DNA of 64,000 nt from Escherichia coli (GTDB taxonomy: Bacteria > Pseudomonadota > Gammaproteobacteria > Enterobacterales > Enterobacteriaceae). The DNA lies in the NCBI RefSeq assembly GCF_030013205.1, contig NZ_CP122648.1, one strand, 5' to 3'. A program made the position numbers. This document shows, in pieces, positions 31,201 through 37,200 of this stretch (position 1 is the first letter of the stretch; each line of letters starts with the position of its first letter).

Positions 31201-34200
31201 CTGTCGGCACCTGCTTCTCATCCTTCGGGATAAACCAGGCAGGCAGTTCAAAACCAATACGCCCGCGAATAAAAGCAATATGGTCCGCATCTTCCGGCCA
31301 CCACACTTCGCTGGTGGCAGCTTTGATCAGGAAAACATAGCGCCCGCCCTTATCACGCATGGCACTGGCATGTTTCATGATGTAACGCATGCCGGTGATG
31401 TATTGCCCCTCATGCTGACTGGCGCGGCTGTATGGGGGATTACCAAAGGCAGCACCTTTAAGCTCCGCAAGACGTTCTGACCAGTCATGCGCCAGCGCGT
31501 TGTCTTCCGCCGTGTAATACGCGGCACATTTGGCGTTATCACCGTCAGTGAACAGATCCAGAACAAACGGACCAAACAAGGTGTTAATTCCCCAGAAAAT
31601 GTTGTCCGGCGTGCGCCACTGATCGCCCACTTCCTTCAGTTCATGGGCTGGTTTGTTCCGCAGTTCTACCAGCGCCTGGCAATATTTATTACTCATTAAG
31701 CCCCCACGTAAAAAGCATCCGCAATGTCTCCGGAAGTACAGCCCGGATGGGCTTCAATGAATTTCTGAACGTCATTTAACAGACTCATGATCACCCCCTG
31801 AATCCTGCCGGGATCTGGCTGTAGTCCACGTTGTCGTAACTGGCTTTGAAGTACGGGTCTTCACGTTTTTCTGTGTGCGTGCTGACGGACGGCGATAAGC
31901 GCAGGGAAAGCTCATCCCATTTTTCCCGCAACTTCGACGGGCTGAGCACGTTACGGCACCAGAACGGATCGCGGCTGACGCGGCTGTACATCTCGCAGAT
32001 TTGTTTGTGAGTACGACCATCCTGCACACACATCAGGCGAATTTCGTTTGCCCATGCTGTCCAGTTCGGTTCTTTGGGACGAACCACCTCGCCGTCACAT
32101 TCGGCGGCCTGCTCGTACAGGGCGATGATTTTTTTCCAGAGCCACTGTGCGCAGGTCAAATCATCCTGCGTTCCCCACTGGCGCTTTTTAGGGCTGAATA
32201 CAACCGCATCAGGATGGCGAGTTAAAAACTCCTGTTCAGCCGTTTGCGTGTCCGGTTGCGAAGCGTCCGGACGAGAAGAGGTTTTATTCTCTGTAGTAAT
32301 CTCTGTTGTATTCTCTGTAAGATCATTGGGCCATTTTGACCCGATGACAGCGTGTCGTTTTGAACCAATGGATCGTGTCATTTTGCGCCCATCCATCAGG
32401 TCACTTTGACCCGATGGAGAAGTGCATTTTGACCTGATGGATTCGTTCACTTTGACCTCTTCTAAAAGCTCACTTTCATAGTTGATCGTGTAGAAGTTGG
32501 TCATGTCACGCTTCGATTTATTGAGTTGCTCGCGACGCAAAACCCCAAGTGATTTCAGGCTTGCAAATGTGCGTTTCAGAGTGGACTCTGACCAGAACGG
32601 AAACTGCTCCAGCCACTGTTCTGTCGTGTTATAAACCCAGCGAATTCCGCCATGCTCAGTGCCTGAATTCGTTTCATTCAGCCAGTAATGAAGCTGCTGC
32701 AACACAATTGCCTCATTCAGACCAATACGGCATGCAAGATCACGATTTATCACAATGGGCTGGGATGTCATTAACAGGCTCATGACCGACCTCTATTTCC
32801 CTGAATTTACGACGAAACTGTTCGAGCGGACTGAAGCATTCATGTTCATAGCCTTCACGGAGGTAGATAACCCGTTGTGTTTCCGGCTCCCAACGAATGA
32901 CTCTGACGGGCACTCCGTAGTGATCTTTGAACCAGCGGTTAACTTGTCGCAAAGGACTGTCTCCTTCTGCCGGTTGAAATCACCCACAGCCCACTCTGCA
33001 AAGCTGTGGGTTACAATTTCCCTGTCACCTGGTACATTCACTGCATAGCAATACTCCACCTTCGCTTTTCCACCCGGTACAGGAAGCGCAATCAGTTGCG
33101 AGCGACGGTAGTGTGTTGTTAAACTGTTCATGCGTTAGTTTCTCCACAACCAGAAGCAATCGACGCCACGACGCCCGGAGCTGCACACTCGCGGGCGTTA
33201 CTCTTTTCCGGCGCACAAAAAACACGAAATAACAGTGTTAAATGCTCCTGCCACTTCGCCATTACTTGGTAGCTGTTCTCTTCGATTTGCTCACGCTCAG
33301 CCTGGTCAATAACTCCATCAGCAGTTGCCTTGCGTAAGTACTGGGAATGCTTGCCAATCCATTCTATTGACTCCATCAGCCGCTGATTAATGTCACCATT
33401 GTCAATGTCATCAATGACCACCAGCGGCACAAACACCCCATTACTACGACGGGCTATTGCATCTGTTACATGCCTGGTACCACTGGCATCCTGTAAAACC
33501 ATGGCCCACTCAAGTGGAAAAATTTGATCCCCACCGCTACGCAGTCTGTTATGCAATTGATCTTTTGCTGGGGTGATATCATCAGATTTATACAAACCAA
33601 GAATTTCTGCTGCTTCCTCATAGCCATGAGGTAAATCAGCAATCGTTCTTCGTATTGCTGCCACCAGCCATGCTGGTTGTTTATCAACTTTCCATTCAGG
33701 TTCTTTACCCACGGTTAATTCCTCATTTCTGTGGTGTTTTTATGCCGCAGCACTGTTAGTCTTTTGATATAAAGACACGTCAACTTTCAGTTTCCCGTTA
33801 GTAATTTTTTCTAACTGGTACGCTCGGCCTTCAGGAATAATCTCAGGCCACTCTGAAACAGACGGATGCTTAATACCTAGGGCTTCGGCGGTTTTACAAA
33901 CTCCGCCGAAATAATTAATCACGTCGGATTTCCGCATTTCTGTCTCCCGTTAAATTACGTCAAGCAGGAATGTAGGATATCCAACATGCCAATGTCAAGA
34001 ATCCTACATTGGCATGTGGTAGGATTGCCTACATGATGAACATGAGTGATCGTATTCGCCAAAGGCGAAAAGAACTGAACCTGACACAACAAGCACTGGC
34101 TGATTTGACTGGTGTGAACCGTGTCACGGTTACTGGATGGGAAAAGGACGACTACCAACCAAATGGAGCCAACCTTCAAGCCCTAGCCAACGCACTTAAA

Positions 34201-37200
34201 TGCGATCCTCTGTGGCTTGTTAGCGGAAAAGGCTCGCCTGAACCAAAGATAAATCTAAAACCTGAAATATTCGCAGTTAAAAAAGTCCCCCTCATCTCGT
34301 GGGTTCAGGCGGGTTCATGGACAATGACGGAGCCTGGTGTCAGGAAAGAAGATGCTGAAGAGTGGGTTTATACTACCGCCCTTGTATCAGAAATGGCATT
34401 TGCACTACGGGTCCGTGGTGATTCAATGACCAATCCCCTCGGCTCACCATCGATACCAGAAGGTTCTATCGTTATCGTAGAGCCAGATATTATTGATACA
34501 GAGTGTATTAACGGAAAAATCGTTGTTGCCCATATCAATGGTGGGCAAGAAGCGACACTCAAAAAATTTGTTGAGGACTGGCCGAACAGGTATCTCGTCC
34601 CACTAAATCCTAACTATAAAACTATTGAATGCGGTGAGAACTGCAGAATAGTTGGTCTTGTCAAACAAGTAATAATGGATTTTTGACACATCTTCCTCAC
34701 TATCGCAAAACCGGGGTATCCCCGGTTTTTTTATGAGCCTATCTTTTTATGTAGGATAACCAACATAAACTCTTGACACCTACATGTTGGATATCCTACA
34801 TTTGTTTTTAGAGTTGTGGTGAATGCGCAGGCTGATGCGCGAAAGACATTGCAGCTATTGCGGAAAAGAGCTGTTCGGCGGGGCAATTAAACGCCCGTGA
34901 GAGTCTGAAATAACCGCAAGCCGGAGATCAGCACCGGTCACCACAACAGCCACTGCTTTGGCGGTACCAGTTTGTACACTTGCTTCCGGCTGGTACCGCT
35001 CTTTTTACAAAACAGAGAAGAGCATCACCGGACGACGGGCTCATAACCCAATCCATCCGGGCGGCTGCCACCGCAGGTGTTCTTCTCTGTTTTGTGGAGA
35101 AACCAACCGGCCTTGCAGGGTCGATATGATGAGGAGCAGCAAAATGGCTAGCGAACGCAGTACTGATGTGCAGGCATTTATCGGGGAGCTGGACGGCGGC
35201 GTATTTGAAACCAAAATCGGCGCAGTTCTCAGTGAAGTCGCTTCCGGTGTGATGAACACGAAAACCAAAGGTAAGGTCTCACTCAATCTGGAAATCGAAC
35301 CGTTTGATGAGAACCGAGTGAAAATCAAACACAAACTCTCATATGTTCGCCCGACTAACCGCGGGAAAATTTCCGAAGAAGACACCACCGAAACGCCGAT
35401 GTATGTCAATCGCGGTGGTCGCCTGACTATTCTGCAGGAAGACCAGGGACAATTACTGACTCTTGCGGTGAACCTGACGGAAAACTCCGCGCAGCAGGTC
35501 GTTAATATCGTTTTTAATAAACTGATTATTTATCTCATCACTGAATATCTTTATATAGTGAGGACTTATTATGTCTCAGAACTTAGACGCAACCGCAATT
35601 AATCAAGTCCATGCCCTTATTTCTGCTCAGGGTGTTAATGAAATTATCAGTAAGATTGGTGCCGATGCTGTGGCATTGCCTGAGAATTTCCGCATTCATG
35701 ATCTGGAAAAATTTAATTTAAATCGCTTCCGTTTCCGTGGTGCGCTTTCCACTGCCAGCATCGATGACTTTACCCGTTATTCTAAAGATCTTGCAGATGA
35801 AGGCACCCGCTGCTTTATCGATGCTGATAATATGCGAGCCGTCAGTGTGCTTAACCTGGGTACTATTGATGAACCAGGTCACGCAGATAACACCGCCACT
35901 CTCAAACTGAAAAAGACAGCACCGTTCTCTGCCCTGTTGTCTGTTAACGGCGAGCGTAACTCCCAGAAGTCACTGGCAGAATGGATTGAAGACTGGGCCG
36001 ACTACCTTGTGGGCTTTGATGCTAATGGTGACGCCATTCAAGCAACAAAAGCGGCTGCGGCGGTCCGTAAAATCACGATTGAAGCAAACCAGACCGCTGA
36101 TTTTGAAGACAATGACTTCAGCGGCAAACGCTCTCTGATGGAGTCTGTCGAAGCGAAAACCAAAGATATTATGCCAGTGGCATTTGAATTTAAATGCGTT
36201 CCGTTTGAAGGTCTGAAAGAACGTCCATTTAAATTACGCCTCAGCATTATCACTGGCGATCGTCCTGTACTGGTTCTGCGCATTATTCAGCTGGAAGCAG
36301 TGCAGGAAGAAATGGCTAACGAATTTCGTGATCTGCTTGTTGAGAAATTCAAAGACAGCAAAGTAGAAACCTTTATTGGTACTTTCACCGCCTGATTTCA
36401 TTACTGCAAATGCCCCTGCGGGGGCATTTATGGAAACGTAATTAACTCAATAATCGCCGGATGGTGCGGGATTCCTTTTACCCGAATTCAGCGCGGTGCA
36501 GCGCATATAAAGTGGAGAACGAAATGTCATTTATTAAAACTTTTTCCGGGAAGCATTTTTATTATGACAAGATAAATAAAGACGACATCGTGATTAACGA
36601 TATCGCGCTTTCCCTTTCAAATATCTGTCGCTTTGCAGGACATCTTTCACACTTCTACAGTGTCGCCCAGCATGCGGTGCTTTGCAGCCAGCTGGTGCCG
36701 CAGGAATTTGCTTTTGAAGCGTTAATGCATGATGCAACAGAAGCGTATTGCCAGGATATTCCCGCTCCACTGAAACGCCTTCTTCCTGACTATAAACGGA
36801 TGGAAGAAAAAATAGACGCCGTAATCCGTGAGAAATACGGGTTACCCCCGGTTATGAGCACGCCTGTGAAATATGCCGATCTCATCATGCTGGCAACCGA
36901 ACGCCGCGATCTCGGGCTTGATGATGGCTCTTTCTGGCCAGTACTGGAAGGTATCCCGGCAACAGAAATGTTCAAAGTTATTCCACTGGCTCCGAGCCAT
37001 GCCTACGGGATGTTTATGGAGCGCTTTAACGAGTTATCGGAGTTACGCACATGCGCATGAATGTTTTCGAAATGGAAGGGTTTCTTCGTGGGAAATGTGT
37101 ACCACGAGATCTGAAAGTGAATGAAACAAATGCTGAGTACCTGGTACGTAAATTCGATGCGCTTGAAGCTAAATGTGCGGCACTGGAAAACAAAATAATA

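What the first reader, a model, noticed from the sequence alone, without database searches (positions are those of the whole stretch)
33955..34800. Immunity region with the same operator family on both sides of cI
Palindromic sites built on tgtaggatatccaacatg / acatgttggatatcctaca recur between cro and cI (33955-34030) and again just after the cI terminator (34745-34800), giving an OR - cI - OL arrangement. The CI-like repressor has an S24 domain, so it is presumably RecA-cleavable. The immunity region looks functional even though the phage is defective.
Basis: seen in the sequence. Interest (0 to 1): 0.3.

Follow-up and report, generated by a model that had tools for sequence, protein, structure and literature searches.

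The report
Phage repressor operators flanking cI
A crippled E. coli prophage still carries an intact lambda-style genetic switch, with the same 18-bp repressor-binding palindrome on the outward promoters either side of the repressor gene; this is textbook biology, although this particular repressor/operator pair has never been studied.

Summary
An 18-bp palindrome, ATGTWGGATATCCWACAT, occurs three times in 64 kb at up to 3 mismatches (0.07 expected). One copy lies between cro and cI (33970-33987). Two lie just after the cI terminator (34749-34766, 34784-34801). A weaker fourth site (34017-34034) covers the cI start codon.

OR1 and OL1 each sit in the spacer of a TTGACA-18-TACATT promoter. The two promoter-plus-operator modules form a 32-nt inverted repeat that fires outward, toward cro and toward yfdP.

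In relatives whose repressor is only 76-92% identical, the operator arms, the -35 boxes and the helix-turn-helix are invariant. The spacers and the four central operator bases drift.

The repressor aligns full-length with lambda CI, with the Ala-Gly cleavage site, the serine and the lysine in register. Its DNA-binding domain resembles P22 C2.

CI and Cro are protein-identical to those of Lys8385Vzw, a Stx1 phage induced by mitomycin C.

Verdict: an ordinary lambdoid immunity region of an uncharacterised specificity. It has no N gene or nut site, and only two strong sites per side.

Side finding: the first RNA made from the left promoter (34813-34947) belongs to a widespread covarying structured family. 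It is absent from Rfam and from the searched literature, and its function is unknown.

The parts
33128..33712 (-). YmfL-family / CII-like regulator gene, second gene of the rightward (PR) operon
   Evidence: 194-aa ORF. Pfam PF06892 Phage_CP76 E 1.3e-6. Annotated as a YmfL family protein in the 100% identical record.
33740..33937 (-). cro-like gene (65 aa)
   Evidence: Pfam PF14549 P22_Cro E 7.6e-22. Protein identical in phages Lys8385Vzw and vB_EcoM-720R4.
33969..33998 (-). PR: TTGACA (33998-33993), 18-nt spacer, TACATT (33974-33969), firing toward cro; predicted start near 33962
   Evidence: 10/12 consensus match. The -35 block ATGTCAAGA is 9/9 invariant in 9 diverged relatives. The start site is inferred.
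33970..33987 (.). OR1, the strong operator, in the PR spacer and -10
   Evidence: 0 mismatches to the palindrome. 18/18 columns invariant across repressors of 76-100% identity. Present in all 80 related loci.
33992..34009 (.). Doubtful middle site (5 mismatches); its left half is the PR -35 box and its right half is ATCCTACAT
   Evidence: The right half is only 6/9 invariant and degenerates to TTCTTACCT in some relatives. It is 22 bp from OR1 and 25 bp from the distal site, which is lambda-like spacing. Its status is unresolved.
34017..34034 (.). Distal OR site (OR3-like) covering the cI ribosome-binding region and start codon
   Evidence: TGGTAGGATTGCCTACAT, 4 mismatches, core GTAGG-N4-CCTAC. 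16/18 columns invariant while the adjacent spacer 34010-34016 is 0/7 invariant.
34033..34686 (+). cI-like repressor gene (217 aa): HTH_3 N-terminal domain plus Peptidase_S24 C-terminal domain
   Evidence: Pfam. Full-length alignment to lambda CI 3bdn, E 7e-25. N-terminal domain matches P22 C2, E 3e-15. Start as annotated in RefSeq and conserved as ATGATGAAYATG.
34707..34735 (+). Intrinsic terminator of cI: AAAACCGGGG-TAT-CCCCGGTTTT plus T-run
   Evidence: Perfect 10-nt inverted repeat (I17). Compensatory changes at 3 pairs in relatives.
34749..34766 (.). OL2, the upstream auxiliary operator, centred 35 bp from OL1
   Evidence: 1 mismatch. Arms 10/14 invariant and centre 0/4 invariant. The 35-bp spacing to OL1 is kept in all relatives.
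34773..34802 (+). PL: TTGACA (34773-34778), 18-nt spacer, TACATT (34797-34802), firing away from cI; predicted start near 34809
   Evidence: 10/12 consensus match. CTTGACAC is 7/8 invariant. It is the inverted copy of the PR module (I1: 33969-34000 / 34771-34802, 88%).
34784..34801 (.). OL1, the strong operator, in the PL spacer and -10
   Evidence: 0 mismatches. Arms 12/14 invariant.
34813..34947 (+). Structured RNA element, the first product of PL: closing helix, hairpin A (GCGCA-GGCUGA-UGCGC), variable interior, hairpin B (GCCGG-AGAUCAGCA-CCGGU)
   Evidence: Leader fold z = -5.7. Family of 67 different closing-helix arm pairs, nearly all complementary. Covariation count: 147 double-change cells against 43 +/- 5 in shuffles, and 95% paired against 27-47% when slid. 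No Rfam match.
34961..35006 (+). Terminator-like hairpin (GCGGTACCAG...CTGGTACCGC plus TCTTTTT); its tail CGCTCTTTTTA resembles a boxA
   Evidence: (I19). 20 of 64 family contexts have a terminator within 170 nt downstream of the RNA element, against 5 of 64 upstream, p = 0.0014. Function not tested.
35007..35095 (+). Long hairpin immediately upstream of the yfdP ribosome-binding site
   Evidence: 25-nt arms, 84% complementary (I2). Present in the minimum-free-energy fold.
35144..35602 (+). yfdP, first protein gene of the leftward operon, frameshifted here; followed by yfdQ and yfdR

Best explanation
This is the immunity (lysis-lysogeny) switch of a lambdoid prophage integrated at dusA. The CI-like repressor is expected to bind as a dimer to 18-bp palindromes: 7-bp arms ATGTWGG / CCWACAT around four central bases that probably do not contact the protein. 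One strong site, OR1, occupies the spacer and -10 of PR, which drives cro and the CII-like gene. An inverted copy of the same promoter-operator module, OL1 on PL, lies just past the cI terminator and drives the early-left transcript: a structured RNA, then yfdP, yfdQ and yfdR. Occupancy of OR1 and OL1 would block RNA polymerase at both outward promoters and keep the prophage silent. It would also make the cell immune to phages of the same specificity. Auxiliary sites probably add cooperativity. These are OL2, 35 bp upstream of OL1, and a distal OR site over the cI start codon. The distal OR site probably also gives negative autoregulation of cI. Cro (P22_Cro family) is expected to compete for the same sites. 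DNA damage would activate RecA and trigger CI self-cleavage at Ala93-Gly94 by the Ser131/Lys177 dyad, lifting repression. Shown here: the sites, their specificity, their position on the promoters, their conservation, the catalytic residues, and the intactness of the module. Inferred: binding, cooperativity, autoregulation, cleavage, and the start sites.
For: Motif specificity: 3 sites against 0.07 expected, and none elsewhere in 64 kb. Both strong sites lie inside 10/12 sigma-70 promoters that point outward, as a 32-nt inverted repeat. All 80 related loci have one site upstream and two downstream, 35 bp apart. Footprint in relatives of 76-92% identity: OR1 18/18 invariant, distal site 16/18, -35 boxes 9/9 and 7/8, operator arms 92-100% identical, against 60-69% for spacers and 67-86% for the central 4 bp. 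The helix-turn-helix (residues 17-49) is almost invariant while the linker and C-terminal domain vary. The protein aligns full-length to lambda CI with the cleavage site and catalytic dyad in register. Its N-terminal domain is homologous to P22 C2, which also uses 18-bp operators (the operator length is from my own knowledge). The heteroimmune relative mEp460 has the same layout with a different palindrome (TTGCGCAA-type) on both sides of its repressor, and homology to the window resumes at 34813, just outside OL1. CI and Cro are identical to those of Lys8385Vzw, which was induced with mitomycin C and plaque-purified. No LexA box precedes any antirepressor-like gene in the prophage.
Against: There is no binding, transcription or cleavage data for this repressor anywhere in the searched literature. 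PRM could not be placed. One candidate is a -10 TACATT at 34005-34010 with a 16-nt leader, but it degrades to TACCTN in some relatives. The other is a -10 TAGGAT at 34020-34025 giving a leaderless mRNA. The -35 of a third candidate found by the scan (TTGGCA at 34009) is not conserved. The site spacings (35 bp at OL, 47-48 bp at OR) are not lambda's 23-24 bp, so lambda-type pairwise cooperativity is not assured. The middle OR site is poorly conserved. The invariance of the distal OR site could partly reflect the ribosome-binding site and start codon. A terminator-like hairpin lies about 150 nt downstream of PL, so PL may not drive yfdP efficiently without some antitermination.
Confidence: 0.85

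Rival explanations
1. The repressor is real, but induction does not go through RecA-stimulated self-cleavage. Instead an antirepressor (for example the KilA-N protein at about 29505-30314, or the LexA-N-domain-only protein at 30720-31046) inactivates CI, as in some Gifsy- or 186-type systems.
For: The prophage encodes a KilA-N domain protein and a 108-aa LexA-like DNA-binding-domain protein. Mitomycin C induction does not distinguish the two routes.
Against: The Ala-Gly site, Ser131 and Lys177 are all present, aligned with lambda CI and invariant in relatives. The only LexA boxes in the prophage precede the DinI-like gene, not an antirepressor. The KilA-N gene lies deep in the PR operon, so it would be expressed only after derepression.
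Confidence: 0.1
2. The two sites downstream of cI are mainly looping or anchoring sites that stabilise repressor at OR (OL-OR octamer-type loop, about 810 bp). On this view the adjacent TTGACA-18-TACATT is not a significant early promoter.
For: The C-terminal domain is about 40% identical to that of lambda CI, which mediates higher-order oligomers. A terminator-like hairpin follows the putative PL within about 150 nt. yfdP is 340 nt away.
Against: The -35 and -10 hexamers are as conserved as the operators (7/8 and 7/7 invariant). They form an exact mirror of the PR module. The early-left genes yfdP, yfdQ and yfdR have no other obvious promoter. Looping and promoter control are not mutually exclusive.
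Confidence: 0.08
3. The repeats are simply duplicated promoter DNA or a recombination scar, with no protein binding; the palindromy is incidental.
For: The longest repeat (32 nt) coincides with a whole promoter.
Against: OL2 and the distal OR site lie outside the duplicated promoter yet carry the same palindrome. Each site is internally dyad-symmetric. The arms are conserved while the centre drifts, which is the signature of a dimeric HTH site. A heteroimmune relative swaps the palindromes on both sides together with the repressor.
Confidence: 0.03

Closest known systems
Bacteriophage lambda immunity region (OL/PL - rexBA - cI - OR/PRM/PR - cro)
   Same: Divergent cI and cro with operators between them. 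A second operator cluster lies beyond cI on an outward early promoter that reads in the same direction as cI. The repressor is an HTH plus S24 protein with an Ala-Gly site and a Ser/Lys dyad, and its C-terminal domain is about 40% identical to lambda's. A CII-like gene follows cro.
   Different: The operator is 18 bp with a different sequence. There are two strong sites per side, 35 and 47 bp apart, instead of three at 23-24 bp. There are no rex genes, no N gene and no nutL or nutR. The cro-to-next-gene gap is 27 nt, and no N-like ORF follows PL. The N-terminal domain is of the P22 C2 type, not the lambda type. Lambda details are from my own knowledge.
Phage P22 immC (C2 repressor, Cro, 18-bp operators)
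   Same: The N-terminal domain is homologous to C2 (E 3e-15) and the whole protein is about 44-45% identical to C2-type repressors. Cro belongs to Pfam P22_Cro. The operator is an 18-bp palindrome whose four central bases vary freely, as with the non-contacted centre of P22 operators (the P22 property is from my own knowledge).
   Different: The recognition helix differs (NRVTVTGWE here against SNVAISQWE in C2). The half-site differs too (ATGTWGG against P22's ATTTAAG-type, the latter from my own knowledge), so this is a different immunity specificity. There is no gene 24 (N analogue).
Phage mEp460 / cdtI / SfV-type early regions (heteroimmune relatives)
   Same: Same gene order and the same early-left operon (RNA element, yfdP, yfdQ, yfdR). 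Same OR - repressor - terminator - OL layout.
   Different: A different repressor and a different palindrome (TTGCGCAA-type) on both sides. Homology with the window starts only at 34813. This shows that the cassette cro-OR-cI-terminator-OL/PL is exchanged as one unit.
HK022 putL and HK639 put-like antiterminator RNAs (for the RNA element downstream of PL)
   Same: A structured, non-coding RNA with two conserved stem-loops placed immediately downstream of PL in lambdoid phages that lack N (for put; for HK639).
   Different: There is no sequence similarity, and HK022 contains no copy of the conserved cores. The HK639 put-like RNA is unrelated in sequence. This element has a closing helix and a hypervariable insert of 7-149 nt. 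It also occurs away from early promoters. There is no PR-side copy.

Membership tests
LexA / lambda-CI type self-cleaving repressors (Peptidase S24) | C-terminal S24 peptidase domain | tested here: met
   PF00717 E 3.6e-25, residues 84-208, above the curated cut-off. Aligns to lambda CI structures 3bdn, 2ho0 and 1f39.
LexA / lambda-CI type self-cleaving repressors (Peptidase S24) | Catalytic Ser-Lys dyad | tested here: met
   GDS131M and LK177K align with lambda GNS149M and FK192K (lambda numbering from my own knowledge). Both are invariant in 9 relatives.
LexA / lambda-CI type self-cleaving repressors (Peptidase S24) | Ala-Gly (or Cys-Gly) scissile bond in the linker | tested here: met
   VQA93-G94 aligns exactly with lambda VQA111-G112 and is invariant.
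LexA / lambda-CI type self-cleaving repressors (Peptidase S24) | Cleavage stimulated by activated RecA, giving SOS induction | not testable with these tools
   Indirect only: phage Lys8385Vzw, with the identical CI, was induced by mitomycin C.
Lambdoid immunity region (OR - cI - OL) | Divergent repressor and cro genes separated by an operator-promoter region | tested here: met
   cro 33740-33937 (-), cI 34033-34686 (+), with operators and PR in the 95-bp gap.
Lambdoid immunity region (OR - cI - OL) | Same operator family at a second promoter on the far side of cI | tested here: met
   OL1 and OL2 at 34749-34801 on a 10/12 promoter. Conserved in all 80 loci.
Lambdoid immunity region (OR - cI - OL) | Tripartite operators (three adjacent sites per cluster) | tested here: not met
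   OL has two sites with no room for a third. OR has two conserved sites plus one doubtful middle site.
Lambdoid immunity region (OR - cI - OL) | N antiterminator gene and nut sites downstream of PL and PR | tested here: not met
   No N-like ORF after PL. There is a 27-nt gap between cro and the next gene. Many lambdoid phages lack N, so this does not exclude the general class.
Lambdoid immunity region (OR - cI - OL) | Repressor and Cro actually bind the operators and confer immunity | not testable with these tools
   Needs EMSA or footprinting and superinfection tests.
P22 C2 immunity specificity | C2-type HTH N-terminal domain | tested here: met
   E 3e-15 to 1adr, 2r1j and 3jxb over residues 4-66.
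P22 C2 immunity specificity | Same recognition helix and operator sequence (homoimmunity with P22) | tested here: not met
   The recognition helix differs at most positions. Overall identity is about 44-45%. The half-site differs from P22's (the P22 sequence is from my own knowledge).
HK022-type put antiterminator RNA (side element 34813-34947) | Sequence or structure homology to putL or putR | tested here: not met
   No copy of the conserved cores in HK022. HK639 put-like RNA is unrelated.
HK022-type put antiterminator RNA (side element 34813-34947) | Cis-acting suppression of downstream terminators | not testable with these tools
   A terminator-like hairpin follows at 34961-35006. No functional data.
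Any Rfam 15 family (side element 34813-34947) | Covariance-model score at or above the gathering threshold | tested here: not met
   Best overlapping hit is 17.6 bits against a threshold of 63 (Guanidine-I, E 0.55), which is chance level.

The most novel reading that the evidence does not exclude
The left-hand target of this repressor may be an undescribed, widespread class of phage structured RNA rather than a protein operon in the first instance. The RNA has a covarying closing helix, two sequence-invariant hairpins whose loops are complementary (GCUGAU/AUCAGC), and a hypervariable insert of 7-149 nt that also accepts moron insertions. In about a third of contexts it is preceded by a boxA-like GUGCUCUUUCC, and in about a third it is followed by an intrinsic terminator. 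It could be a cis-acting antitermination or anti-Rho device of N-less lambdoid phages, or a CI-repressed small RNA that is retained and still regulated in defective prophages. Its family sequence matches about half of complete E. coli genomes.
Probability: 0.3. Interest if true: 0.6.

Novelty: new member of a known kind. Interest (0 to 1): 0.22.

Why it matters
The switch itself adds one more specificity to the catalogue of lambdoid immunity types.

Its practical interest is that the same CI, Cro and operator set is carried by Stx1- and Stx2c-converting phages. At least 80% of the 1.5-kb region around the module is found in 134 of 5426 complete E. coli genomes. A strain holding this defective prophage should therefore be immune to lysogenic conversion by those toxin phages, and its resident repressor could hold incoming homoimmune phages silent.

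The defined operator (ATGTWGG-N4-CCWACAT) and the clean two-site geometry make it an easy system for comparison with lambda and P22.

The adjacent RNA family, if its function can be found, bears on how N-less lambdoid phages get early transcription past terminators.

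Tried and rejected
- Chance or scattered motif: rejected.
- A promoter TTGGCA-17-CATGAT at 34009-34037 as PRM: rejected, because its -35 is not conserved in relatives.
- A longer cI ORF starting upstream (TTG at 34009, or an ATG inside OR in relatives): rejected. The upstream ATG is in frame in some relatives but out of frame in the window, and the spacer is variable.
- Literature search for the operator sequence: nothing. Only genome-description papers mention Lys8385Vzw, and they did not recognise its Cro/CII switch.
- RNA element as HK022 put: rejected.
- RNA element as HK639 put-like RNA: rejected.
- RNA element as a tRNA or tmRNA: rejected.
- RNA element as any Rfam family, including C4, STnc100, AgvB, AsxR and Esr41: rejected.
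- RNA element as the Pas sRNAs of a 2026 preprint: not supported by what I read.
- RNA element always at the 5' end of a primary transcript: rejected. Only 3 of 69 contexts have a promoter-like site (score at least 9/12) immediately upstream, two of them of the window's immunity type.
- K-12 CPS-53 as an annotated reference for the leader: not informative, because K-12 shares only 36 nt upstream of yfdP.
- The large protein-database searches and structure prediction were not used, because PDB and Pfam alignments already settled the protein questions.

Full report
**Where the window comes from.** The region is 100% identical to the chromosome of E. coli ETEC4079. The finding lies in a lambdoid prophage inserted at dusA. 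The integrase is at window 9197-10294, and a duplicated dusA fragment at about 41709-41813 marks the right end. The prophage is defective: the terminase and tape-measure genes are truncated and abut each other, other structural genes are partial, and yfdP is frameshifted. Around the finding the genes are a YmfL/CII-like gene (33128-33712, minus), a cro-like gene (33740-33937, minus, Pfam P22_Cro E 7.6e-22), and a cI-like gene (34033-34686, plus, HTH_3 plus Peptidase_S24 E 3.6e-25). These are followed by yfdP, yfdQ and yfdR on the plus strand.

**The observation.** The 18-bp palindrome ATGTWGGATATCCWACAT matches at 33970-33987 (0 mismatches), 34749-34766 (1) and 34784-34801 (0). At up to 3 mismatches it matches nowhere else in 64 kb. 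Shuffles give 0.07 expected, and none of 100 shuffles reaches three matches. The 9-nt half-site occurs six times in the window, all in these two clusters. A 4-mismatch site (34017-34034, core GTAGG-N4-CCTAC) and a 5-mismatch site (33992-34009) also fall within the 95-bp cro-cI gap. The whole window has only 2 and 7 sites at those levels.

**Position on promoters.** The consensus scan finds two 10/12 promoters, both TTGACA-18-TACATT. One is on the minus strand (33998 to 33969) facing cro. The other is on the plus strand (34773 to 34802) facing away from cI. Each has a perfect operator in its spacer and -10. The two promoter-operator modules form a 32-nt inverted repeat (33969-34000 / 34771-34802, 88%). 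OL2 lies 35 bp upstream of OL1. The distal OR site overlaps the AGGA and the ATG of cI. A perfect hairpin plus T-run (34707-34735) separates cI from OL, and its stem shows compensatory changes at three pairs in relatives.

**Comparative evidence.** A search of viral contigs with the repressor returned 80 loci. Sixty-two have an identical protein and 18 are 76-92% identical. Every locus has one strong site upstream of cI and two downstream, 35 bp apart.

In alignments of nine representatives, conservation splits cleanly between functional blocks and spacers:

| Block | Conservation |
|---|---|
| OR1 | 18/18 invariant |
| PR -35 block | 9/9 invariant |
| Distal OR site | 16/18 invariant |
| PL -35 | 7/8 invariant |
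| OL1 arms | 12/14 invariant |
| OL2 arms | 10/14 invariant |
| Intervening spacers | 0.60-0.69 identity |
| DNA downstream of PL | 0.60 identity |
| Four central operator bases | 0.67-0.86 identity |

Conserved arms with a drifting centre is the pattern expected for a dimeric helix-turn-helix protein. In the proteins, residues 17-49 (the helix-turn-helix) are almost invariant, while the linker and parts of the C-terminal domain vary.

The middle OR site is not well conserved: its right half degenerates in four of nine relatives. I therefore count two firm sites per side.

The heteroimmune phage mEp460 shares the early-left operon but has a different repressor. It carries a different palindrome (TTGCGCAA-type) in both the OR and OL positions, and nucleotide homology to the window begins at 34813, just outside OL1. 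The unit cro-OR-cI-terminator-OL/PL is thus exchanged as one cassette.

**The repressor.** It aligns over residues 9-210 with lambda CI (3bdn, E 7e-25). VQA93-G94 lies on lambda's cleavage site, GDS131M on the catalytic serine, and LK177K on the catalytic lysine. All are invariant in relatives. The N-terminal domain is homologous to the P22 C2 DNA-binding domain (E 3e-15) but has a different recognition helix. The closest studied repressors (P22 C2 type, and the C2-annotated repressor of phage DE3) are only about 45% identical. This is therefore a distinct, uncharacterised immunity specificity. No paper in the searchable library contains the operator sequence.

**Is the switch intact?** CI and Cro are protein-identical to those of phages Lys8385Vzw and vB_EcoM-720R4. 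Lys8385Vzw, a Stx1-converting phage, was induced with mitomycin C and plaque-purified. Its authors did not recognise a Cro/CII switch in it (PMC7946995). The 11 nucleotide differences between the window and Lys8385Vzw over 33700-35200 avoid all four operator 18-mers and all promoter hexamers. The only LexA boxes inside the prophage precede a DinI-like gene (10294 and 10322), not an antirepressor. This favours direct RecA-dependent cleavage.

**Mechanism.** The most likely mechanism (0.85) is as follows.
- CI dimers on OR1 and OL1 occlude PR and PL.
- OL2 and the distal OR site add cooperativity.
- The distal OR site probably also represses cI translation or transcription at high repressor levels.
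- Cro competes for the same sites.
- SOS-activated RecA triggers self-cleavage.

The unresolved points are these.
- PRM is not located; the two candidates have -10 boxes at 34005-34010 and 34020-34025.
- The 35- and 47-bp spacings may or may not allow lambda-type cooperativity or OL-OR looping.
- It is unclear how PL transcription passes a terminator-like hairpin at 34961-35006.

**What PL transcribes (side finding).** The 340-nt leader between PL and yfdP is non-coding and strongly structured (z = -5.7). Its first 135 nt (34813-34947) belong to a large phage family retrieved independently by the 5' end and by the 3' end.

Structure of the family:
- The ends are conserved: [arm]-GAAUGCGCAGGCUGAUGCGC ... 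GCCGGAGAUCAGCACCGGC-[arm].
- The interior is 7-149 nt and unrelated between members.
- The closing helix has 67 different arm pairs, nearly all complementary.

On a gap-free alignment of 58 distinct ends, chosen by sequence cores only:
- 95% of cells pair, against 27-47% when the partner is slid.
- 147 cells carry changes on both sides, against 43 +/- 5 in shuffles.
- The seven inner pairs show up to five pair types each.
- Both hairpin stems show compensatory variants.
- The two loops are complementary and switch together in two sequences (GGUCGA with UUCGAC), which is suggestive but thin.

G-U pairs on the plus strand indicate that this strand folds.

Identifications tested and excluded:
- HK022 put.
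- The HK639 put-like RNA.
- A tRNA.
- Any Rfam 15 family.
- No paper in the library contains its sequence.

Context is mixed:
- 14 of 74 contexts have an S24 repressor gene upstream on the same strand.
- Others lie by terminase, portal or tail genes, or by tRNA genes.
- 22 of 66 contexts have a boxA-like YGCUYU within 16 nt upstream; the window's copy does not, because the immunity cassette junction replaces it.
- 20 of 64 have an intrinsic terminator within 170 nt downstream, against 5 of 64 upstream (p = 0.0014).
- In vB_EcoM-720R4 a 650-bp moron is inserted inside the element.

The function is unknown. The main options are a cis antitermination or anti-Rho device, or a CI-repressed small RNA.

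**Verdict.** The finding is a correctly read, ordinary lambdoid immunity region: a new member of a known kind with low interest. The adjacent RNA family is the more unusual object and deserves its own follow-up.

Noticed in passing
window 34813-34947 (+): Structured RNA element, the first thing transcribed from the cI-controlled left promoter. It belongs to a large phage family with conserved ends, a covarying closing helix (67 arm pairs), two near-invariant hairpins with complementary loops, and a hypervariable 7-149 nt interior. It is not in Rfam 15, is not HK022 or HK639 put, and is not found in the searchable literature.
   Followed up: partly
window 34961-35095 (+): A terminator-like hairpin (GCGGTACCAG...CTGGTACCGC plus TCTTTTT) whose tail reads CGCTCTTTTTA (boxA-like). 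It is followed by a long 25-bp-arm hairpin ending just before the yfdP ribosome-binding site. The leader is mosaic, with recombination breakpoints at about 34813, 34939, 34958 and 35125 across E. coli genomes.
   Followed up: partly
L003 (phage vB_EcoM-720R4) 4115-4900, corresponding to window 34813-34947: A roughly 650-bp insertion carrying three small opposite-strand ORFs sits inside the RNA element's interior. Beyond it lies a second, variant copy of the element (GTTGTGGTGAATGCGGCTCAGCGC...CACCCGGCACCACAAC). The interior therefore seems to be a moron insertion point.
   Followed up: partly
E. coli plasmids of about 97-99 kb (hits H105, H106) matching window 34813-34948: The RNA element alone, without the rest of the leader, occurs on large plasmids with nothing annotated under it. 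In all, 245 of the leader's matches in E. coli genomes are on plasmids.
   Followed up: no
window 30720-31046 (-): A 108-aa protein consisting only of a LexA-like N-terminal DNA-binding domain with no S24 domain, located in the nin-like region next to the adenine methyltransferase. It could mimic or compete with host LexA.
   Followed up: no
window 10294-10341 and 10356-10604 (+): Two LexA-box-like sequences (CACTGTTTATCCATACAGTT and CACTGTATACAAACACAGTA) directly upstream of a DinI-like gene beside the prophage integrase. This looks like an SOS-regulated RecA modulator carried by the prophage.
   Followed up: partly
window about 9100-10294 and 41709-41813: The prophage is integrated at dusA. 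An intact dusA lies next to the integrase at the left end, and a short duplicated dusA fragment lies at the right end.
   Followed up: partly
window about 20466-22080: A truncated tape-measure gene abuts a truncated large-terminase gene. A single large deletion has removed most head and tail genes, which explains why the prophage is defective.
   Followed up: partly
L004 (phage mEp460) 1820-1900 and 2640-2720: The heteroimmune relative has its own palindrome family (TTGCGCAA / TTGCAT..GCGCAA) on both sides of its repressor, in the same OR - cI - terminator - OL layout.
   Followed up: partly
window 46345-46385: Two LexA boxes of the host lexA promoter. The host lexA-dinF locus lies only about 4 kb from the prophage end.
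   Followed up: no
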